From NCBI GenBank assembly GCA_964470915.1, contig CAYYEM010000004.1, positions 13,185 through 50,969 of the forward strand: a stretch of DNA of 37,785 nucleotides. The letters run 5' to 3'. The notes beneath the pieces were generated by a model. That model searched no databases. It was not told the origin of the DNA and was given only the letters and a program-made list of their open reading frames with translations. The DNA comes from an uncultured Pseudomonadota bacterium (GTDB lineage: Bacteria; UBA10199; JADFYH01). The stretch's first letter is position 1, and the number at the start of each line of letters is the position of its first letter. The translations under genes and the position numbers were made by a program. This document shows, one piece after another, positions 19,052-37,692 of this stretch.

Positions 19052-19462
19052 ATGGAATATATGGCATCTACGATTAAAGTTATTTTAGAAACAGGTGTGA
19101 TCGCAAGCACCGAAAAACAAAAAAGAACGGTGTTAGGCCTTGGCCTGAAATATCGTAATGCAGTGAATACCTTAAAAGATACTCCTGCAATTCGTGGTAT
19201 GGTGAACAAGGTTTCGCATTTAGTAAAAATATTAGATAAAGATTTTTCACAAAATCCATGGGAAAATTTGCCTCCCTCTTATGAACTAGGGGCAGTAAAG
19301 GCAAAGGTGGATTCTGGAAAAAAGAAGTCTTCTAAAAAGCTTTCATCTGCACTTGAAGTGGCTGGTGAAGCTAAAACATCTTCAGCGAAAGCCACTAAAG
19401 TAAAATCTCCGGCTTCTGCTAAGAAAACAAAAGTTTCTACAAAGAAGGTTAAAGGAAAATGA
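19052..19462 (+). CDS. rpmD: 50S ribosomal protein L30 with about 75-aa Lys/Ala/Ser-rich C-terminal extension
   Basis: L30 core is MASTIKV...LGLGLKYRNAVNTLKDTPAIRGMVNKVSHLVKI. ATG at 19061 is a likely alternative start. The ORF stays open to an ATGA overlap with rplO. Confidence 0.9.
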   Translation: MEYMASTIKVILETGVIASTEKQKRTVLGLGLKYRNAVNTLKDTPAIRGMVNKVSHLVKILDKDFSQNPWENLPPSYELGAVKAKVDSGKKKSSKKLSSALEVAGEAKTSSAKATKVKSPASAKKTKVSTKKVKGK

Positions 19463-28281: not shown

Positions 28282-30201
28282 CTATCGGATTCTCCGGCTG
28301 AATGTCAAGTTAAGAAGCGAGCTCCTTTTGAAGAATCGAAGCAAAAAAATGAGAGCTAAGTAAAAGCCATAAAGAGAAAGCGGTGAACTTGTTTGATTAG
28401 CTGATTTAACAAGTGAACAACCGCTGCCTTGAGCGCCAAAAACAGAGACTGTTACTGTAGCAGAATTGTTGGAAGTGTCATTGTCGATTACTTGAGCTGA
28501 AACGGTTGCTGTATTTTGGAATATGTTAGCAGTGATGGGTGTTACATTGAGAATAACCGTTGCGCTGGCACCTGATTCTATATCCCCAAGAGAACAGCTA
28601 ATGCTTGTCGTGCCTGTGCATGAGCCTTGGCTCACACTAATATTATTTAATTGTAAACCTGAGGCAAGTTCGTCGCTTACGTTGACTGCTCCTGCTGTGT
28701 CTGGACCTGAATTGTTTACAGTAATTGTAAAGTCAAAGCTGCTATTTGGATTTACAAACTCATCAGCTGTTTTTTGAATACTGAGATCGGCAGTGTTACC
28801 TAAATATCTTAAAATAATTTGTTGTCCGCCTGAACCTAATCCATTGCTGTCACCTACAACAAGAATTTTCCCATCGCTTTGAACGGAGGCAGCCCTTCCT
28901 GCATTGCTAGAGCCTGGGGCAGTATGTACAACACCAGGGGTGTTACCGTCAGGATTAAAGCTTGTATCGAGTTCTCCAGAGGAAAGCATTTTAACAAGTC
29001 CAATCTCAGTCCCCGAACTTCCGACAATGAAAACAGAATCATCATCTTGGATAGCGCTGTTGATAGCATTGACAGTAACAGAATCATTTGTGCCATCGAT
29101 ACCATTTGTATTAAATACTCCTGAACTTCCAAAAGTAGTATCGAGAGCTCCATTGCTAGATTGATATCGAACGGTGCTACTGGTGGTATCAGTACTTCCT
29201 ACCGCTACTATTTGCCCATTAGTTTGTAACTCCAGACTATAAAGAATATCTTGGCTTACACCCAACACATCTGTACTTACAATTCCATTAGTTCCAAAAG
29301 CAGTATCAAAACTTGCATCTGAGTTAAGCTTAATTAATGCAAAATCGAGTAAGTTGCCTGCATCAAAAGTGCCAACTCCTCCTACAGCAATTTGATCGGT
29401 TTCACTCAGATAAATAATAGAGAGCGGTATTTCAACACTAGGAGTTGAAAGTAAATTGAGCGTAAGAATGCCGGGCGTGCTTCCTGAAGGGTTGAAGCTG
29501 GTATCTAAACTGCCATCTGTGTTGATACGTATAATAGTAAAATCGAAAAAATTAGTAGGATCTATTGTGAGGCCGGCTAGAAGCATTTTATTGTCGCTTT
29601 GCACAGCAATAGAGTTTGCGCTGGAGACTACAGATGCAGTTTCGGGCTCGATAATGAGAGTCCCTGGAAGAGGTCCTGAAGCATTGAAAGTAGAATCTAA
29701 ACTTCCATCCGCATTATAAACACTGATTGCAAAGTTGGAATAGAAGTCAGGTGGATCTATGACCAACGAAGTACCAATCAAGACAATTTTTCCGTCAGGT
29801 CGAACCGCCATGTCTGTAGTAGCATCTGAGCTGAGGCTAAAAGTTCCATTATAGTTAGGTAAGAAATCAGTGGTTACTCTTCCACTGCTGCCAAAACTGG
29901 TATCAAGAGAACCATCTGAATTTAAGCGAGATAAAGTAAAGTCAGAATCAATGGATGCTGGTGTCAGAGTAGTGGCTGTCACCAAGCCACCTACATAAAT
30001 ATAACCATTTGAAAACTGCCTTACGCCTCTTGCTCCTGATGTCAGTATATCAGCATCAGGATAGAGGTCTGCAAAGGTAATGTAAGCGATTCCATCACTA
30101 TCAAAGCTAGTATCCAGATCACCTGGTGCGGTGAAAGCTGTAGGAGTATGGAGAATAAATTGAAGGCAAAGAGCAGAAATGAAAAATGATTTTTTTATCA
30201 T
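28282..30201 (-). CDS. Secreted delta-60-repeat (predicted beta-propeller) + DUF11-like domain protein with Cys-containing C-terminal TM/basic tail
   Basis: Signal peptide MIKKSFFISALCLQFILHTPTAFTA. Seven repeats of the L/F-D-[TS]-[STA]-F-x-x-x-G motif about 55-70 aa apart. DUF11-like ADLSIQKT...NNSGPD...V.D.L..GL. Tail is GSGCSL...LYGFYLALIFLLRFFKR. Confidence 0.85.
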   Translation of the reverse strand: MIKKSFFISALCLQFILHTPTAFTAPGDLDTSFDSDGIAYITFADLYPDADILTSGARGVRQFSNGYIYVGGLVTATTLTPASIDSDFTLSRLNSDGSLDTSFGSSGRVTTDFLPNYNGTFSLSSDATTDMAVRPDGKIVLIGTSLVIDPPDFYSNFAISVYNADGSLDSTFNASGPLPGTLIIEPETASVVSSANSIAVQSDNKMLLAGLTIDPTNFFDFTIIRINTDGSLDTSFNPSGSTPGILTLNLLSTPSVEIPLSIIYLSETDQIAVGGVGTFDAGNLLDFALIKLNSDASFDTAFGTNGIVSTDVLGVSQDILYSLELQTNGQIVAVGSTDTTSSTVRYQSSNGALDTTFGSSGVFNTNGIDGTNDSVTVNAINSAIQDDDSVFIVGSSGTEIGLVKMLSSGELDTSFNPDGNTPGVVHTAPGSSNAGRAASVQSDGKILVVGDSNGLGSGGQQIILRYLGNTADLSIQKTADEFVNPNSSFDFTITVNNSGPDTAGAVNVSDELASGLQLNNISVSQGSCTGTTSISCSLGDIESGASATVILNVTPITANIFQNTATVSAQVIDNDTSNNSATVTVSVFGAQGSGCSLVKSANQTSSPLSLYGFYLALIFLLRFFKRSSLLNLTFSRRIR

Positions 30202-32238: not shown

Positions 32239-32738
32239 CGTCGGCCTCCTGCTATTTTTAATTTTTGATCCAATTTTAAACTATGAGCATGGCAAATAGC
32301 TACCGCTAAAGCATCGGAAGCATCGTAGTAAGTAATTTCAGGAAGTTTGAGCAGCTGTTTCACCATATGTTGAATTTGTTCTTTGCTGGCTCTTCCGTAG
32401 CCTACCACCGCTTGTTTAATGATAAGGGGAGTATACTCGTAGATGGGGAGCTTGAACTCCATGCTCGCTACCATCGCAGCTCCTCGAGCATGTCCTAGCT
32501 GAACAGTACTTTTTACATTTTTGGCATAAAAAATATTTTCAATGGCGACTTCATCCGGGGAAAATTTTTCAATCAACTCTTTAATTCCCTTAAAAATAGT
32601 ATGAAGTCGAGCAGGAAAGTTTTTGTCTGTTTTAGTAAAAATACCACCGTTATCGATGTGTTGTAAGTGGGATCCCTTTTTTTCCAGCACACCATATCCG
32701 GTGATATGGGAGCCTGGATCTATGCCGAGAATAATCAT
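32235..32738 (-). CDS. ruvC: Crossover junction endodeoxyribonuclease RuvC
   Basis: Start taken at MIILGIDPGS (ATG at 32738). The 15 upstream track codons run through a GC-rich repeat from a TTG start. 4-nt overlap with ruvA. Confidence 0.94.
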   Translation of the reverse strand: MIILGIDPGSHITGYGVLEKKGSHLQHIDNGGIFTKTDKNFPARLHTIFKGIKELIEKFSPDEVAIENIFYAKNVKSTVQLGHARGAAMVASMEFKLPIYEYTPLIIKQAVVGYGRASKEQIQHMVKQLLKLPEITYYDASDALAVAICHAHSLKLDQKLKIAGGRR

Positions 32739-32748
32739 ATTTAACCTG

Positions 32749-32795
32749 TAGGGGCGCCCCTTGGTGCGCCCTGGGCTCGGCAAACAGAGCCCCTA
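32749..32795. repeat. TAGGGRC-foot hairpin, copy D (composite, GC-rich)
   Basis: TAGGGGC (32749-32755) and GCCCCTA (32789-32795) enclose two sub-hairpins, GGGCGC/GCGCCC and GGGCTC/GAGCCC. Lies in the yebC-ruvC spacer. Confidence 0.6.
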
Positions 32796-32804
32796 CATTA
32801 ACAT

Positions 32805-33557
32805 TTATTCCGCAGACAACTTTTCCATTACCTCATCTGGGATATCAAAGTTAGCATATACTTTTTGAACGTCATCGTGTTCTTCCAAATTTTCCATTAG
32901 CTTAAGCATTTTTTCTGCATCAGTACCTGTAAGCTTGATGTGGGTTTTGGGGATCATCGAAACTTCAGAAGAAGTATAGGTGATTTGAGCTTCATCAAGA
33001 GCTTTTTTAACGACATCAAAGGTGGAGGGATCACAGGTAACTTGAAAATCATTCTCTCCTTCTTGAATATCTTCAGCGCCTGCTTCAAGAGCAACTTCCA
33101 TTAGTTTGTCTTCAGTCACTTTGGTTTTATCAAAATAAAAAACTCCTTTTTTCTCAAATGTCCAAGCGACGGAGCCAGACTCACCCATATTGCCGCCGCC
33201 TTTGCCTAGAATATTTCTTAGCTCTGAAACGGTGCGGTTTTTGTTATCGGTAAGCGATTCAATCATAATGGCCACACCTGCAGGGCCGTAAGCTTCATAG
33301 GTAATATCTTCGTAGCTCACTCCTTCGAGTTCACCAGTGCCTTTTTTAATTGCACGTTGAATATTATCCATGGGCATTGATTGAGCCCGTGCATCGTCAA
33401 TAGCTTTGCGTAAACGAGGGTTGCCAGTTGGATCTCCTCCACCCATTTTTGCAGCTACAGTAATGGCTTTGATCAGTTTAGTGAAGGCTTGGCCGCGCTT
33501 GGCATCGGCAGCGCCTTTTTTACGTTTAATAGTTGCCCATTTAGAATGTCCTGACAT
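32805..33557 (-). CDS. yebC: YebC/PmpR-family transcriptional regulator
   Basis: [22 protein letters not shown]..., with ATG at 33557 after AAAGGA. The track TTG start at 33578 is less likely. Confidence 0.95.
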
Positions 33558-33581
33558 GATGTAATCCTTTCTGTTCAATCA

Positions 33582-33650
33582 TAAGGGGCTTGCGTCGCCC
33601 CCTCCGCCAGCAAAGCTGCCAGAGCCTCCCCCTCCACGTCTATCGCCCTA
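33582..33650. repeat. GC-rich composite inverted-repeat island, possible TAGGGRC-foot family member (copy E)
   Basis: On the minus strand it reads TAGGGCG...GGAGGGGG...GGAGGGGG CGACGCAAGCCCCTTA. Contains the GGGGC-TTGCGTC-GCCCC hairpin. Sits between the ubiquitin-like gene and yebC. Confidence 0.4.
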
Positions 33651-33731
33651 GATTCAAAAAAAACTAACAGAGCCTATCTGGTGACTCAAGGGAAAAGATT
33701 GAGAATTAGTGCGATAGCTTCTTTTAAGCTT

Positions 33732-34037
33732 TTATTTTTCTTGTCCTTCTAATTTGATGACAAGAATCATATTAGTATTTTGGCTAATCTGGTAAGAAGC
33801 TAAGCTGGCATTGTCTTCAAGAGCTTTTCCTTCATAAAGCAGGCGTTGTTTTTTGACGGGGATCCCTTCTTTTACTTCGACCTTCTTTTTAACCATGAGA
33901 ATTGTATCTGAGGCGTTTGCTTCTACAGGAATCACTTTGCCGACTAGTGTTTTAATAGTTATTGTAAACGCTAAACAAAGATTAGCATTTAAAGATAAAA
34001 AGCCGAATGTGAATAATGTGAAAATGATTTTTTTCAT
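33732..34037 (-). CDS. Secreted ubiquitin-like protein (signal peptide + eukaryote-type ubiquitin fold, no C-terminal GG)
   Basis: AAGGAG 6 nt upstream of the ATG. Signal peptide MKKIIFTLFTFGFLSLNANLCLA. Mature residues 24-99 are 35/76 identical to ubiquitin in an ungapped hand alignment. Confidence 0.85.
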   Translation of the reverse strand: MKKIIFTLFTFGFLSLNANLCLAFTITIKTLVGKVIPVEANASDTILMVKKKVEVKEGIPVKKQRLLYEGKALEDNASLASYQISQNTNMILVIKLEGQEK

Positions 34038-34101
34038 TTTAACTCCTTATGAACTGAATTTTTATTTATCTTAATAAAAGCTGACAGATAAAGGCTAGAA
34101 C

Positions 34102-35772
34102 TTATTGAATACTGAAATTTTTCTCATAAACCAACTGCTTGGAAGAATTTTGGTCCCGGATAATGACTAAAATTTTATAAGTTCCTGTTTGAGGTTGAGG
34201 GGGAAGTAAAATTTGATTCGCGAAAAGTACGTGTTGAGTATTTTCAGAGACAGATTGTGAAAATTGTACCACGTCATTTTTGTCGACTAATAATTCTCCA
34301 TTGGGAGCTTCGATTTGTACGTCTTCTATTAACTCAATTTTCCCATTATTTTTTTGGAAGCCGGCTAGCTTAAAGAAAGCAAAAATTAAGTCTCCTGGGT
34401 GAAATAGTCCATCACTACGTATTTGGGTAGGATCGGGGCCAGCTGAAAAATAAAATTCACTGATTTTCAGTGTATTGCTAGTGCTTTGGGGTTTGGCGCC
34501 TGTTCTCGGTTTTGTGACAGGCATTTGAACAACAGGTTTTGAAATGGATTGAGTGTTTTGAGTTTTTAGCGAGGCTTGAGGGCTTACTTGAGTCAGAGAA
34601 GCAAGACTGGGCAGTTGAGAATGAAACCATTTCCGTTCTGGATTACGGCTAGACAAGAAAATTAAACAGAGGAGTATAAAAAATAAAATTCCTAGCGTAA
34701 TGGCGGCTTCTCGTTTGGGTTCTTTTTTTATGACGAGGGTTTCGGCAAGATAATCTCCTAAGCGTTGTTTGCGACGTGAGAGAATTAAAAAAGGATAGGC
34801 CAGAATAAAATCTAAAGGGCGAAGCAAATTTCGAATAATAGCGGCGGAGTTATCAAGAGATTCTCCATTTTCCAAAATGCTCTGTCGTTTAAGAATGATT
34901 TTTCCAGGTGTGCTTGAAACAGCTATTTCAAAAATCATGAAATAAGCAATGCTAATGACTGGTAACAATGCCATCCACACTTGAAAAGAAGCATGTTGAG
35001 GGTTTAACGAAGAGAGAAAAAACCAGATAAAGGCCGAAAAAAATAATAAATCAAGGAAGAAGCCCAGGGCTCTAATGAAAGTAGAAGCCAAAGTGATTCC
35101 TCGCAAATCGACAGAAGATGATTTTTTGCGTGGTTTTTTAATGACCACAGTTCGAGCGGCACGATCACCGAGCCTTTGATAGAAATGAGAACTTTCCATC
35201 GAGAGTACGGCAACTCCAAAAAAGAGAGGATAATCAAAAAGCCGACAAAGATTTCTCAGAAATACATTGGCAAGAGTCGGAGCGCCTCCATCGAGATCGA
35301 CTACCCGAAGTCGACACAAATATTTGCCAGGGGTGGCAGCACCTACACCTTCAAAGCTCACATAATAAAGCAGCACGAGGAGCATGCCTAAACACCACAA
35401 GCTCAGGGTGGCTAAAAAGGGCCAGCGTAACTGAAGATTAAGAAACCAAACTTGGTTAAAGAGCTTGGTAGTGAGTAAAGCTTGAAGGCCTATGAAAAGA
35501 TAAGTGAGCAGAAGGCTATCTATAAAAAAAGCAGCAAAACGATCTCGGGGCAGGGCTGCATGTAACGGAAAACGTCCTGTATCAAAAGGACTTAAGTCGA
35601 AAGAGTTAGAATCTACTTCTTCTAACGCTTTGCGTCTATTTTTTCTTGAAAAAAGACTCGACCTCTTGGTGAAAGCTACAGTTTCGTCATCGGCTTCAGG
35701 GGCTGTAACTTCTTTGCCTCCTTTTTCTTCGACGACGGTTAAGTCTTCTCCATCCTCCCAGTCTTTAGCCAT
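34102..35772 (-). CDS. Tandem RDD-domain membrane protein with C-terminal extracytoplasmic domain
   Basis: Two RDD-type modules: ...PRDRFAAFFIDSLL...TPGKYLCRLRVVD...QRLGDRAARTVVIK, then ...IRALGFFLDLLFF...TPGKIILKRQ...QRLGDYLAETLVIK. An extra TM helix, a Q/S/T/P-rich linker and a beta-rich domain of about 130 aa follow. Confidence 0.75.
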   Translation of the reverse strand: MAKDWEDGEDLTVVEEKGGKEVTAPEADDETVAFTKRSSLFSRKNRRKALEEVDSNSFDLSPFDTGRFPLHAALPRDRFAAFFIDSLLLTYLFIGLQALLTTKLFNQVWFLNLQLRWPFLATLSLWCLGMLLVLLYYVSFEGVGAATPGKYLCRLRVVDLDGGAPTLANVFLRNLCRLFDYPLFFGVAVLSMESSHFYQRLGDRAARTVVIKKPRKKSSSVDLRGITLASTFIRALGFFLDLLFFSAFIWFFLSSLNPQHASFQVWMALLPVISIAYFMIFEIAVSSTPGKIILKRQSILENGESLDNSAAIIRNLLRPLDFILAYPFLILSRRKQRLGDYLAETLVIKKEPKREAAITLGILFFILLCLIFLSSRNPERKWFHSQLPSLASLTQVSPQASLKTQNTQSISKPVVQMPVTKPRTGAKPQSTSNTLKISEFYFSAGPDPTQIRSDGLFHPGDLIFAFFKLAGFQKNNGKIELIEDVQIEAPNGELLVDKNDVVQFSQSVSENTQHVLFANQILLPPQPQTGTYKILVIIRDQNSSKQLVYEKNFSIQ

Positions 35773-35829: not shown

Positions 35830-37692
35830 CTAGCCTTGGACTTCAATGATTGAGAGTATAAAATTACGAAATTGATTTTGGGTGAACTCCCAATTATCCC
35901 AGAGTTTTTCATTGGGATGATCTTGGGCAATATCGATAGCAAAATCGTAGAGACTCGTTTGGGTTCGAGGGTTAAAACCTCTTGTTCGGAGGGCTGTTTC
36001 TCGCAAGGCTGTAAAATCAACATCTACGGTCATGTCGAGGCGTATGCCAAGTCCTGTGCTGCCCGCAATATATGTTTTTAGAGAAGAGTCAAAGCTAAAA
36101 CCTAATTGGTTTGCCAAGAGATAATAAGGTATCAATGCTTCCTGATATTCGGAGCGATACCCCCCATAACGCCTAAAAGTTGGATGTTCAGGCCCACGAT
36201 TTTGGATTGTATTTCTCTCAGCACCATAATCTATTGTTAGAATGCTTCCTGCTTCTAGATGATTTCGAATGTTTTGCATCCAATCCTCAAGAGGTCTTTG
36301 AATGTAAAATATTTTTCCTTCTCCTGCTTGCAGGGGATGTCTGTCTAAAAAAGCTTTTGTTGAATTACGGAGAGGGCGTCTTACTTCTTGCAAAAGCCCT
36401 CCTTCAAGACGAATATAAATTTCGTAAAGTTCGCCATGATGACAAATAATCGGAGTCGCTGCGAACATATCTACAAGTTCGACTGAAATAAAAACTCCTC
36501 TTTTAATAATAGGCAAATCTCCATCAATCACTGAAGCATGATGAAAGATAATTTTTCCTAAGTAGGGTTGAAGATTATTTCTTTGAACTTCCTGAAGGGT
36601 TTGGCTGCGATCTACCATGTGATAGCGGAGAGCTGATTTTAAACGACCCCACTCACTTTCGTTGCCAGCAGAAAGTGCTTCTAATTCATCAAAAATATTT
36701 TTAGCGAGAGTGCCATTTCCACAACCCATTTCCACTACTTCAAAAATGTCCGGAGAAGCTGCCGCTCTCCATTCTCTCCGAATTTTTCGGAGTACGAATT
36801 TACCCAAAGCTGGGTTTTCGGAAGGGGTTTGGAAAAGTCCACTCGTAACCCCGATCAAATGATTTGCCTCTGCACTAGTGTAAACCCCATGTTCGGATTC
36901 AAACATTACAAAGTCGAAATAATCTTCAAAAGGAACTTCTCCACCTCTTGATGCAACGAATTGTTTGGCACTTCTTTCATAGGAGCTTGGATGTTCAAGA
37001 TAATATTCGATCATTTCTCTCCATCCCATGCCTTCCATGGCAGCAAGCAAATTTGCCATCATAAGATATGAAGCTACAGAGCTGCGAGAGTGGAATGCTG
37101 CATCTAAAAAGACTCTCATGCTTTCTCTTCTTTGTGCTTGAGTTTGCATGGGAGGCTTTACAATATTTCTGTTCTCTAGATCCTGGATAGGATTTCTTCT
37201 AATTTCAGTGAGATGTGGGCTTGCTGGTAAATAGATAAAGGCTTCAATGCCAGCATTTCTTATGAGTTGGGCAATGCTAGTATTTTGATATTGAGCCATG
37301 AGTCCTAAATCGTGCATCATTTCTGTAGAAGGCGCGGAAGAGGAGTCTTCTAAGTTACGCAAGTGCCAATGGACAGCACGAGCAAAGAGTCTACGAGTAA
37401 TCTCAGCATCGCTCATTTCAAGAAGATTGATATTTGTTTCATGTTTTGTGCTCTCGTTATGAAAAAGGGGAAGTTGAGAATGTCGAATCGGAGATTGTAA
37501 TAAGTTTCTGCTATATTCAGCTAAATTTCTTTCAAGATTTTGAATTCGATACCCGACAAGTTTGCTGCTTAAAATATTTCCAAATCCAATTTGTAAAGTA
37601 GTGAGGTTTGCTTCCAAAAATTGTTTGCTGAGCGAAGTATTATTTGTTTCTTCAAGTTGAAGAAAAGTAGCTGCATGGTGTCCCGCCATCAT
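35830..37692 (-). CDS. MidA/NDUFAF7-like (DUF185) SAM-dependent methyltransferase with about 260-aa unrecognised N-terminal region
   Basis: C-terminal two-thirds has VEMGCGNGTLAKNIFDEL (SAM motif I), ...YHMVDRSQTLQEVQ..., ...SVELVDMFAA..., ...ILTIDYG... and ...DMTVDVDFTAL... Confidence 0.65.
   Translation of the reverse strand: MMAGHHAATFLQLEETNNTSLSKQFLEANLTTLQIGFGNILSSKLVGYRIQNLERNLAEYSRNLLQSPIRHSQLPLFHNESTKHETNINLLEMSDAEITRRLFARAVHWHLRNLEDSSSAPSTEMMHDLGLMAQYQNTSIAQLIRNAGIEAFIYLPASPHLTEIRRNPIQDLENRNIVKPPMQTQAQRRESMRVFLDAAFHSRSSVASYLMMANLLAAMEGMGWREMIEYYLEHPSSYERSAKQFVASRGGEVPFEDYFDFVMFESEHGVYTSAEANHLIGVTSGLFQTPSENPALGKFVLRKIRREWRAAASPDIFEVVEMGCGNGTLAKNIFDELEALSAGNESEWGRLKSALRYHMVDRSQTLQEVQRNNLQPYLGKIIFHHASVIDGDLPIIKRGVFISVELVDMFAATPIICHHGELYEIYIRLEGGLLQEVRRPLRNSTKAFLDRHPLQAGEGKIFYIQRPLEDWMQNIRNHLEAGSILTIDYGAERNTIQNRGPEHPTFRRYGGYRSEYQEALIPYYLLANQLGFSFDSSLKTYIAGSTGLGIRLDMTVDVDFTALRETALRTRGFNPRTQTSLYDFAIDIAQDHPNEKLWDNWEFTQNQFRNFILSIIEVQG

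What the first reader, a model, noticed from the sequence alone, without database searches (positions are those of the whole stretch)
33732..34037. Signal-peptide-bearing, eukaryote-type ubiquitin homolog
The 101-aa minus-strand ORF has a strong RBS and reads MKKIIFTLFTFGFLSLNANLCLA | FTITIKTLVGKVIPVEANASDTILMVKKKVEVKEGIPVKKQRLLYEGKALEDNASLASYQISQNTNMILVIKLEGQEK. Residues 24-99 align without gaps to eukaryotic ubiquitin ([76 protein letters not shown], recalled from memory). By hand count 35/76 positions are identical. These include L8, K6/K11/K27/K29/K33/K48, the KEGIP block, QRL..GK.LED, Y59 and V70. K63 is Q and I44 is L. The C-terminus is LEGQEK rather than LRGG, so there is no free di-glycine for canonical conjugation. 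The first 23 aa form a classical Sec signal (KK, hydrophobic core, C-L-A). This identity is far above what prokaryotic beta-grasp proteins (ThiS/MoaD type) show, which argues for acquisition from a eukaryote. The only well-known precedent I know is the exported ubiquitin homolog of Bacteroides fragilis, which acts as a secreted antagonistic/host-interaction factor. No E1/E2/E3 or DUB-like gene is visible in the window, so an exported mimic, inhibitor or toxin role is more plausible than a modifier role.
Basis: partly seen in the sequence, partly recalled or inferred. Interest (0 to 1): 0.85.

Follow-up and report, generated by a model that had tools for sequence, protein, structure and literature searches.

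The report
Exported, diverged ubiquitin copy in a bacterium
An uncultured bacterium carries a small, recently inserted gene for a strongly diverged copy of eukaryotic ubiquitin with an export signal and no conjugation tail, a rarely described kind of bacterial protein whose only studied relatives are secreted toxins of gut Bacteroides.

Summary
ORF 33732-34037(-) encodes 101 aa. It has an AAGGAG ribosome-binding site, a Sec-type N-terminus (KK, hydrophobic core, C-L-A) and a 76-aa domain that aligns gap-free with ubiquitin at 35/76 identities (Pfam PF00240, E=1.6e-20). The modelled fold is ubiquitin. The tail is LEGQEK, not LRGG, and the window holds no E1, E2, E3 or DUB gene.

New findings:
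- The gene is a roughly 390-bp single-gene insertion between an RDD-family gene and yebC-ruvCAB. Three relatives with the same gene order lack it.
- A diverged strain shows 6 synonymous and 0 non-synonymous changes, so the gene is under purifying selection.
- Its codon usage matches the neighbouring genes.
- No relative above about 54% identity was found. It is closer to ubiquitin (47%) than to BfUbb (37%) and lacks the cysteines BfUbb needs.
- The pairing of a signal peptide with ubiquitin is not unique to Bacteroides. 40 of 49 long-contig hits in reference genomes from many phyla share it.

Best reading: an exported, non-conjugatable ubiquitin-fold binding protein, probably an accessory factor for interactions with other organisms. 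Its function and the donor are unproven. I rate it a new variant of a known kind, of moderate interest.

The parts
33732..34037 (-). Complete ORF of the ubiquitin homologue (101 aa plus stop)
   Evidence: Pfam PF00240 E=1.6e-20. The identical protein lies on three further independent assemblies with the same flanks.
33969..34037 (-). Codons 1-23: predicted Sec/SPase I signal peptide MKKIIFTLFTFGFLSLNANLCLA
   Evidence: KK n-region, hydrophobic core, C at -3 and A at -1. A23 aligns with the -1 Ala of other bacterial signal-peptide ubiquitins. Inferred only; no SignalP was available.
33735..33968 (-). Codons 24-101: mature ubiquitin-fold domain (76 aa aligned to ubiquitin residues 1-76, plus EK); tail LEGQEK; no cysteine
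   Evidence: 35/76 identities, gap-free. AF2 model with pLDDT above 90 over residues 31-80 and a beta-grasp topology. Foldseek top hits are ubiquitin, target-normalised TM 0.90-0.98 for single-ubiquitin chains, rmsd 0.5-1.9 A.
34043..34048 (-). Shine-Dalgarno AAGGAG, 5 nt before the ATG
   Evidence: read directly from the sequence
33712..34101 (-). Approximate extent of the inserted single-gene cassette (64-nt leader, ORF, about 20 nt trailer); absent from the relatives
   Evidence: In L084, L085/L086 and L087 the RDD stop codon is followed within 66-94 nt by yebC, with no ORF between and no tblastn hit. The intergenic alignment places the shared sequence downstream of the ubiquitin stop codon.
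33661..33692 (-). Conserved intergenic core CCCTTGAGTC-N12-TGTTAGTTT (TTGAGT at 33689-33684, 17-nt spacer, TAGTTT at 33666-33661). Probably the yebC-ruvCAB promoter; it marks the downstream boundary of the insertion.
   Evidence: Invariant in the window, L002, L084, L085 and L087, with a variable spacer of fixed length. The terminator-like hairpin flagged is weak and not significant (-5.7 kcal/mol, z=-0.63).
34102..35772 (-). Upstream neighbour: RDD-family membrane protein (556 aa). Probably co-transcribed with the ubiquitin gene, since no terminator and no good promoter lie between them.
   Evidence: Pfam PF06271, promoter/terminator scan, orthologues at 76, 71 and 66% identity.
32805..33557 (-). 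Downstream neighbour yebC (true start is the ATG at 33557), followed by ruvC, ruvA, ruvB

Best explanation
Shown: the ORF is a real, expressed-looking accessory gene. It was inserted as a single-gene cassette of about 390 bp between the RDD gene and the yebC-ruvCAB operon of one species of an uncultured lineage. More distant relatives of that lineage are deposited as 'Deltaproteobacteria bacterium' MAGs.

Shown: it encodes a strongly diverged copy of eukaryote-type ubiquitin and is kept by purifying selection.

Inferred from sequence rules and from alignment with many other bacterial signal-peptide ubiquitins: the Sec pathway exports the protein and signal peptidase I cuts after Ala23. The mature protein then starts at the position of ubiquitin Met1.

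Inferred: it cannot act as a conjugated modifier. It lacks Gly76, Arg72 and Arg74, it sits outside the cytoplasm, and no E1, E2 or DUB gene is nearby. It would therefore act as a stable beta-grasp protein that binds a target stoichiometrically in the periplasm or outside the cell.

Inferred, least certain: it is a diffusible factor for competition or interaction with other organisms, by analogy with BfUbb and BoUbb. Its target and uptake route must differ from theirs, because the BfUbb cysteines are absent.
For: - Homology and fold.
- A real gene in a bacterial chromosome: the identical protein occurs on three further assemblies with the same neighbours, at DNA identities of 100%, 99.93% and 93.7%.
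- Purifying selection: in the 93.7% strain all 6 differences in the gene are synonymous. If changes fell at random, the chance of that is about 1e-4 (S=65.3, N=237.7).
- Insertion: three relatives keep EamA-RDD-YebC-RuvC-RuvA-RuvB-DivIC but have only 66-94 nt between RDD and yebC. tblastn finds nothing there. The conserved intergenic core lies downstream of the ubiquitin stop codon.
- Species-restricted: self was the only hit in 5.8 billion proteins by word search. JGI metagenome contigs gave nothing. The best viral hit was 52% and the best bacterial hit 54%.
- Export: N-terminal features and the same junction in 40 of 49 bacterial ubiquitin ORFs.
- No conjugation machinery or defence-system match.
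- Analogy: BfUbb and BoUbb are secreted antibacterial ubiquitins that need no immunity gene (PMC5705921, PMC11467351). That fits a stand-alone accessory cassette.
Against: - Nothing here tests function.
- Signal-peptide cleavage was not checked with a trained predictor, and an uncleaved membrane anchor is possible.
- A Sec signal only takes the protein to the periplasm. No route across the outer membrane is visible.
- BfUbb activity depends on a disulfide involving Cys76 and on a Bacteroides SusCD importer (PMC11901371, PMC11467351). Neither applies here, so the analogy is weak.
- The ubiquitin recognition patches are no better conserved than the rest of the surface (6 of 12 residues against 46% overall, my count). 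This gives no hint of the target.
- Only 37.8 kb of the genome is visible, so partner genes elsewhere cannot be excluded.
Confidence: 0.55

Rival explanations
1. A BfUbb-type bacteriocin in the strict sense. The protein is secreted, taken up by a TonB-dependent transporter of closely related bacteria, and kills them by blocking an essential periplasmic prolyl isomerase.
For: It shares the architecture: a signal peptide fused to ubiquitin residue 1, a stand-alone gene, no immunity gene, and presence or absence varying between close relatives (PMC5705921, PMC11467351).
Against: The mature protein has no cysteine, while the BfUbb C-terminal Cys disulfide is essential for prolyl-isomerase binding and killing (PMC11901371). 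Identity to BfUbb is only 37%, lower than to ubiquitin. The ButCD importer is a SusCD-type transporter; the study that searched for it reports it in Bacteroides species (PMC11467351).
Confidence: 0.1
2. A ubiquitin mimic aimed at eukaryotes such as a host, prey or grazing protists. Once released or exposed after uptake, it occupies ubiquitin-binding proteins or enzymes as a dead-end analogue that cannot be conjugated.
For: L8, L44, V70, I36, L73, R42, G47 and six of the seven lysines are kept, while the E1-recognition tail is lost. BfUbb binds human E1 and inhibits ubiquitination in vitro (PMC11901371, citing the 2011 study). Most other bacterial signal-peptide ubiquitins stay near-canonical even though their DNA is fully recoded, as expected if faithful mimicry is under selection.
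Against: This copy is only 46% identical to ubiquitin. H68, R72, R74, Q49, A46, D58, R54 and K63 are changed, so the mimicry is poor. No secretion system or eukaryote-association marker is in view, and the lifestyle of the lineage is unknown.
Confidence: 0.2
3. A function in the producer's own cell envelope. The ubiquitin fold would serve as a periplasmic or membrane-tethered adaptor, stabiliser or partner of the adjacent RDD membrane protein.
For: It is probably co-transcribed with the RDD gene, since no terminator or good promoter lies between them. In many bacteria the exported ubiquitin domain is the N-terminal module of large surface proteins, which suggests a generic extracellular structural role. 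The hydrophobic N-terminus could be an uncleaved anchor (models residues 2-35 as one helix).
Against: The closest relatives have the RDD gene without it, so RDD function does not need it. An accessory single-gene insertion argues against a housekeeping role.
Confidence: 0.15
4. A cytoplasmic ubiquitin-like modifier or sulfur carrier. On this reading the N-terminal hydrophobic stretch is not a signal peptide, and the partner enzymes are encoded elsewhere.
For: Only 37.8 kb of the genome is visible. Bacterial E1/E2/JAB operons with ubiquitin-like proteins exist (PMC10557695).
Against: There is no terminal Gly-Gly and the tail is LEGQEK. There are no PADLOC or ThiS/MoaD hits and no E1, E2 or JAB gene in the window. 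The ubiquitin-like proteins of those bacterial systems are encoded in the same operon as their E1, E2 and deubiquitinase genes (PMC11601603), which is not the case here. The N-terminus has all the features of a signal peptide.
Confidence: 0.03
5. A passenger with no function: a recently captured gene fragment that is decaying.
For: It is a long branch, at most 54% identical to any relative, and it has lost the canonical tail.
Against: The ORF is intact with a strong ribosome-binding site. There are 0 non-synonymous against 6 synonymous differences between strains. The hydrophobic core residues of ubiquitin are retained and the model is confident. Codon usage is fully adapted to the host.
Confidence: 0.05

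Closest known systems
BfUbb (Bacteroides fragilis ubiquitin) and BoUbb (B. ovatus)
   Same: A bacterial, stand-alone, eukaryote-type ubiquitin (Pfam PF00240). An SPase I signal peptide ends exactly where ubiquitin Met1 would be. The C-terminal Gly-Gly is missing. The gene is accessory, with patchy distribution and no adjacent immunity or conjugation genes (PMC5705921, PMC11467351).
   Different: Identity to mature BfUbb is only 37%, against 47% to human ubiquitin. The Cys70/Cys76 pair, whose disulfide is essential for BfUbb action, is absent (PMC11901371). The host is a different, non-Bacteroidota lineage in which the ButCD importer is not expected. Activity is untested.
Eukaryotic ubiquitin
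   Same: Gap-free 76-residue alignment with 46% identity. The core residues and the KEGIP, QRL and GK-LED motifs are conserved, as are six of the seven lysines. The predicted fold superposes at 0.5-1.9 A.
   Different: It carries an export signal. The tail is KLEGQEK instead of RLRGG. H68, K63, R54 and D58 are changed. It is encoded in a bacterial chromosome without any ubiquitin-system enzymes.
Signal-peptide ubiquitin domains in many other bacterial genomes (no description found in the paper library searched; seen here in Bizionia, Pedobacter, Flavobacterium, Fontibacillus, Conexibacter, Denitrificimonas and many MAGs)
   Same: The same junction of signal peptide and ubiquitin residue 1. Some are stand-alone proteins of 96-113 aa.
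   Different: Those proteins are nearly canonical ubiquitin. Many keep LRLRGG, and many continue into long surface-protein regions. The window protein is only 44-54% identical to them.
Bacterial ubiquitin-like conjugation and defence operons (Bil/Bub type, E1-E2-JAB)
   Same: A beta-grasp protein encoded in a bacterium.
   Different: No E1, E2 or JAB neighbours, no PADLOC match, no exposed C-terminal glycine, and an export signal is present (PMC10557695, PMC11601603).

Membership tests
Pfam ubiquitin family PF00240 (eukaryote-type ubiquitin/Ubl domain) | Profile score above the curated gathering threshold across the whole domain | tested here: met
   73.1 bits against a cut-off of 25.4, E=1.6e-20, residues 26-96 matched to profile positions 1-71 of 72
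Pfam ubiquitin family PF00240 (eukaryote-type ubiquitin/Ubl domain) | Beta-grasp fold (beta-beta-alpha-beta-beta-3/10 helix-beta) | tested here: met
   AF2 model with pLDDT above 90 over residues 31-80. Foldseek top 50 hits are all ubiquitin or ubiquitin variants, target-normalised TM 0.88-0.98 for single-ubiquitin chains. Caveat: the alignment given to AF2 consisted of ubiquitins, and the single-sequence run failed.
Ubiquitin proper / conjugatable type I modifiers | C-terminal Gly-Gly (free or exposed by processing), with R72 and R74 for E1 recognition | tested here: not met
   The tail is I-K-L-E-G-Q-E-K: R72 is K, R74 is E, G76 is Q
BfUbb/BUbb secreted antibacterial ubiquitins | SPase I signal peptide whose cleavage site abuts ubiquitin residue 1 | tested here: met
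   KK, hydrophobic core and C-L-A, followed by residue 24 aligned to ubiquitin M1. This is a rule-based inference; no trained predictor was run.
BfUbb/BUbb secreted antibacterial ubiquitins | C-terminal cysteine forming the intramolecular disulfide required for prolyl-isomerase binding and killing | tested here: not met
   The mature sequence has no cysteine; the only Cys (C21) lies in the signal peptide. The requirement is taken from PMC11901371.
BfUbb/BUbb secreted antibacterial ubiquitins | Uptake by the ButCD SusCD transporter, a periplasmic prolyl-isomerase target, and bactericidal activity | not testable with these tools
   This needs the full genomes of the producer and its neighbours, plus experiments
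Bacterial Ubl conjugation/defence operons (E1-E2-JAB; Bil/Bub) | Ubl gene adjacent to E1, E2 and JAB/DUB genes | tested here: not met
   The window's genes of at least 100 aa were identified, nearly all by Pfam scans here (YebC and RuvB from the precomputed Pfam calls for their orthologues), and none is an E1, E2, JAB or DUB gene. No PADLOC hit for the Ubl or its two upstream neighbours.
ThiS/MoaD sulfur-carrier beta-grasp proteins | ThiS/MoaD profile match, C-terminal Gly-Gly, ThiF/MoeB neighbour | tested here: not met
   Only ubiquitin-type Pfam families matched. There is no Gly-Gly and no ThiF-type gene in the window.
Bacterial signal-peptide ubiquitin domains (informal class seen) | Signal peptide directly fused to a ubiquitin domain | tested here: met
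   The alignments place A23 in a nearly invariant column, and 40 of 49 ORFs share the junction. However, sequence identity to them is only 44-54%, so common descent of the fusion is not shown.

The most novel reading that the evidence does not exclude
This is an independent second invention of a ubiquitin-derived extracellular weapon or effector. A captured ubiquitin, exported by Sec, has evolved far from the canonical sequence to bind a new target without the BfUbb disulfide and without a SusCD importer, in a non-Bacteroidota lineage. Together with the hundreds of signal-peptide ubiquitin domains seen in other phyla, for which I found no description in the paper library searched, it would mean that bacteria widely and repeatedly use eukaryotic ubiquitin as an extracellular module.
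Probability: 0.25. Interest if true: 0.7.

Novelty: new variant of a known kind. Interest (0 to 1): 0.5.

Why it matters
Secreted bacterial ubiquitin is so far a curiosity confined to Bacteroides, with BfUbb and BoUbb acting as narrow-spectrum toxins. This gene shows the same architecture in an unrelated, uncultured lineage. Its sequence is about as far from BfUbb as from NEDD8, it lacks the residues BfUbb needs, and its point of insertion can be mapped to within a few dozen bases.

If it is active, it would define a second mode of action for exported ubiquitin. It would also be a compact scaffold (76 aa, no cysteine) for finding its target. The survey made along the way suggests that exported ubiquitin domains are much more common in bacteria than the papers I could search indicate. 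That can be tested directly with existing isolates such as Bizionia, Pedobacter, Flavobacterium, Fontibacillus and Conexibacter.

Tried and rejected
- Exhaustive HMMER search of 1.84 billion representatives. It gave 22,384 hits, but the 150 listed were all multi-repeat polyubiquitins whose scores add up, so it was useless for finding close single-domain relatives.
- Word-index homologue search with the protein alone found only the protein itself. The same search with a profile of bacterial signal-peptide ubiquitins was flooded by eukaryotic di-ubiquitins. It served only to supply an alignment for AF2.
- Single-sequence AF2 failed, with pLDDT 54 and the domain below 50.
- JGI metagenome scan with peptides specific to this protein found no relative. 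The viral contig scan found nothing above 52% identity, so no donor was identified.
- Naming the organism failed. The window's genome was not among the best 80 GTDB hits. The cluster look-up gave no names. A paper search for the sample accessions gave nothing useful.
- Composition test for foreign origin. GC3 and codon fit are like the neighbours, so the test is uninformative. The low overall GC (0.337) comes from the amino-acid composition.
- Terminator reading of the conserved intergenic motif. I rejected it as weak (z=-0.63) and prefer a promoter reading.
- Lipoprotein reading. A-N-L-C is a poor lipobox because Leu sits at -1. It is judged unlikely but not excluded.
- Literature search for a description of widespread bacterial signal-peptide ubiquitins found none in the library held here.
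- One alignment (A2) contained a BfUbb signal peptide that I wrote from memory. I discarded it and rebuilt the alignment without that sequence (A3).

Full report
**Observation.** The minus-strand ORF at 33732-34037 exists as described. It is 101 aa with the exact quoted sequence, and AAGGAG (34048-34043) lies five bases before the ATG. A script count gives 35 identities in 76 positions in a gap-free alignment of residues 24-99 with human ubiquitin. L8, K6, K11, K27, K29, K33, K48, R42, I36, Y59 and V70 are kept. I44 is L, K63 is Q, H68 is I, R72 is K, R74 is E and G76 is Q, and the protein ends in LEGQEK. The match is far beyond chance. Pfam PF00240 gives E=1.6e-20 and 73.1 bits against a cut-off of 25.4, covering profile positions 1-71 of 72. 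Single ubiquitin chains in the PDB give E about 3e-16.

**Fold.** AF2 without an alignment failed. With a 28-row alignment it gave pLDDT above 90 over residues 31-80 and the beta-grasp order of secondary-structure elements. Foldseek returned only ubiquitin and ubiquitin variants, with target-normalised TM 0.90-0.98 for single-ubiquitin chains and rmsd 0.5-1.9 A. The alignment consisted of ubiquitins, so the model confirms the homology but is not independent evidence.

**Signal peptide.** The first 23 residues have two lysines, a hydrophobic core (IIFTLFTFGFLSL) and C-L-A at positions -3 to -1. No trained signal-peptide predictor was available, so export and cleavage are inferred. The inference is strengthened by comparison. 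In 40 of 49 ubiquitin-encoding ORFs on long contigs of bacterial reference genomes, a hydrophobic presequence ends in small residues at -1 and -3 immediately before ubiquitin residue 1. In the alignment, A23 of the window protein falls in that nearly invariant column. A-N-L-C is a poor lipobox. An uncleaved anchor cannot be excluded.

**Genomic setting.** The window is ordinary bacterial core genome.
- Plus strand: rpoB, rpoC, the str, S10, spc and alpha ribosomal operons with secY, adk, map and rpoA, then L17, an AhpC-type protein and panD.
- Minus strand: a Methyltransf_28 protein, an RDD-family membrane protein, the ubiquitin gene, yebC, ruvC, ruvA, ruvB, a DivIC-like protein and a delta-60/DUF11 surface protein (YebC and RuvB identified from the precomputed Pfam calls on orthologues).
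- No E1, E2, E3, JAB or DUB gene is present, and PADLOC finds nothing.

**The gene is an insertion.** The RDD protein has orthologues at 76, 71 and 66% identity. One lies on a 1.26-Mb contig and another comes from groundwater. In all three loci the order EamA-RDD-YebC-RuvC-RuvA-RuvB-DivIC is kept, but only 66-94 nt separate RDD from yebC. No ORF lies there and tblastn finds no trace of the ubiquitin gene.

An invariant intergenic core, CCCTTGAGTC-N12-TGTTAGYTTT, lies just after the RDD stop codon in the relatives. In the window and in strain L002 it lies about 40 nt after the ubiquitin stop codon. The ubiquitin gene with its 64-nt leader is therefore a cassette of about 390 bp inserted between the RDD stop codon and that motif.

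The motif has conserved hexamers (TTGAGT, TG-n-TAGTTT) at a fixed 17-nt spacing with a variable spacer. Its hairpin is not significant. I read it as the yebC promoter rather than the terminator flagged. No terminator and only a weak A/T-rich promoter-like stretch precede the ubiquitin gene, so read-through from RDD is the likeliest source of transcription (inference).

**The gene is maintained.** The identical protein occurs on three further assemblies from independent sequencing runs with the same neighbours. Two are 99.9-100% identical in DNA. One (L002) is 93.7% identical. In L002 the gene carries six differences, all synonymous. With 21.6% synonymous sites, the chance of that is about 1e-4 if changes fell at random. 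Synonymous divergence is lower in the ubiquitin gene (0.09) than in yebC (0.24; Fisher p=0.01), and the 93 bases of the RDD end that L002 covers show one mismatch. This hints at a recombination boundary near the stop codon.

GC3 and codon fit are like the neighbouring genes. The low total GC (0.337 against 0.399 +/- 0.023) reflects the K/I/N/T-rich protein. So the gene is compositionally adapted to its host, and composition says nothing about its origin.

**Relatives and origin.** The protein is a long branch.
- Word-index search of 5.8 billion proteins found only itself.
- JGI metagenome contigs gave no relative.
- The best identities are 54% (Flavobacterium L038, over 67 aa), 44-51% to other bacterial ubiquitins, 47-48% to human ubiquitin, 41% to NEDD8 and 37% to BfUbb, and 52% at most to ubiquitins on viral contigs.
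- The exhaustive HMMER search found 22,384 homologues, but its list was filled by polyubiquitins.

The ultimate origin is clearly eukaryote-type ubiquitin, not ThiS/MoaD. The immediate donor is unknown. The fusion of signal peptide to ubiquitin residue 1 is widespread in bacteria, so transfer of a ready-made cassette from another bacterium is at least as likely as direct capture from a eukaryote.

**The wider class (found in passing).** Scanning one genome per GTDB species gave at least 501 ubiquitin-encoding stretches. Many are tiny, low-coverage contigs and are probably eukaryotic contamination. Others lie on long contigs of isolates (Bizionia argentinensis, Pedobacter sp., Flavobacterium sp., Fontibacillus phaseoli, Conexibacter sp., Denitrificimonas caeni) and of MAGs from many phyla. 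In these, a signal peptide is followed by nearly canonical ubiquitin. That ubiquitin either stands alone (96-113 aa, some ending in LRLRGG) or forms the N-terminal module of surface proteins of up to 1,689 aa.

The GC content of the ubiquitin-coding DNA follows that of the flanks (r=0.89, n=43, range 0.28-0.63) while the proteins stay close to eukaryotic ubiquitin. These are therefore resident genes under strong constraint. I found no paper describing this distribution. The 2017 BfUbb paper says only that B. fragilis is 'one of a few bacteria' with such a gene (PMC5705921).

**Mechanism.** What is known comes from BfUbb. It is a 76-aa secreted ubiquitin whose C-terminal cysteine forms an intramolecular disulfide needed to bind and block an essential periplasmic prolyl isomerase. 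It enters target cells through the SusCD-type transporter ButCD. Producers need no immunity gene (PMC5705921, PMC11467351, PMC11901371).

The window protein shares the architecture and the accessory, stand-alone character. It has no cysteine in the mature part, is less similar to BfUbb than to ubiquitin, and sits in a lineage outside Bacteroidota. It is therefore not a BfUbb-family member by the one defining feature that could be tested.

Its hydrophobic core is conserved (I3, I13, I23, V26, L43, L50, L56, I61, L69, with conservative changes at positions 5, 15, 30 and 67). The surface, including the tail that E1 recognises, has diverged. The I44 and I36 recognition patches are no better conserved than the average (my count). 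This pattern fits a stable beta-grasp scaffold with a new binding specificity.

My best explanation (confidence 0.55 for the whole statement) is an exported, non-conjugatable ubiquitin-fold binding protein kept as an accessory factor, most likely for interactions with other organisms. The gene, its fold, the insertion and the selection are shown. Export is well supported but inferred. The role is an analogy.

**Rivals.**
- Strict BfUbb-like prolyl-isomerase toxin: 0.10.
- Mimic aimed at eukaryotes: 0.20.
- Function in the producer's own envelope, possibly with RDD: 0.15.
- Cytoplasmic modifier: 0.03.
- Decaying passenger: 0.05.

**Verdict.** The donor need not be a eukaryote, and the architecture is not nearly as rare in genomes as in the papers I could search. 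The gene is a new variant of a known kind, of moderate interest. The organism could not be named. More distant RDD orthologues are deposited as 'Deltaproteobacteria bacterium' or 'bacterium' MAGs.

Noticed in passing
L004-L083 (e.g. L007 9998-10519, L010 9995-10285, L038 9995-10291, L014 9962-12451, L016 9713-11191, L009 9950-15019): Reference genomes from many bacterial phyla, and one Methanothrix MAG, encode a signal peptide fused directly to near-canonical ubiquitin. It stands alone or forms the N-terminal module of large surface proteins. 40 of 49 long-contig ORFs share this design. The GC of the ubiquitin DNA tracks the host GC (r=0.89). I found no description in the paper library searched.
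   Followed up: partly
window 33661-33692 (-), and L084 7705-7740, L085 7697-7733, L087 7700-7735: An invariant intergenic core, CCCTTGAGTC-N12-TGTTAGYTTT, lies upstream of yebC in all relatives. It reads as TTGAGT, a 17-nt spacer, then TAGTTT preceded by TG, so it is probably the yebC-ruvCAB promoter. The hairpin inside it is not significant.
   Followed up: partly
window 33727-33736 / 34073-34082 and 33730-33742 / 34060-34072: A perfect 10-nt inverted repeat (AGCTTTTATT / AATAAAAGCT) and a 12/13 direct repeat (AAGAWAAATAAAA) flank the ubiquitin ORF. They could be scars of the insertion or chance matches in AT-rich DNA.
   Followed up: no
window 32567-34194 versus L002: Between two strains, divergence jumps at the ubiquitin stop codon. 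Upstream it is low: 1/93 in the RDD end, 3/64 in the leader and 6/306 in the gene. Downstream it is high: 32/153 in the intergenic region and 52/774 across the yebC region (44 differences within the coding sequence itself). This suggests a recombination boundary or a recent sweep of the RDD-ubiquitin segment.
   Followed up: partly
window 35830-37692 (-): A 620-aa protein with a Methyltransf_28 (PF02636) domain and a roughly 300-aa N-terminal extension lies upstream of RDD. The three relatives have an EamA transporter gene there instead, so this is a second local difference in gene order.
   Followed up: no
window 28282-30201 (-): A delta-60-repeat/DUF11 surface protein ends in GSGCS followed by a hydrophobic helix and basic residues. 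From memory, this looks like a MYXO-CTERM-type sorting signal, which would fit a former 'Deltaproteobacteria' lineage.
   Followed up: no
window 19052-19462 (+): The ribosomal protein L30 ORF is 136 aa, although the L30 domain covers only residues 8-58. The C-terminal extension is unusually long and overlaps the start of L15.
   Followed up: no
P0002-P0151: Many very long proteins (1,000-2,500 aa) carry 10-21 tandem ubiquitin-like repeats that are only 25-40% identical to the query. Their origin was not examined.
   Followed up: no
L017, L041, L046, L079: Canonical ubiquitin without a signal peptide lies on 23-36% GC contigs of MAGs labelled bacterium, Rhodospirillaceae, Rickettsiales and Neomarinimicrobiota. 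These could be mis-binned eukaryotic or viral DNA, or genuine cytoplasmic bacterial copies.
   Followed up: no
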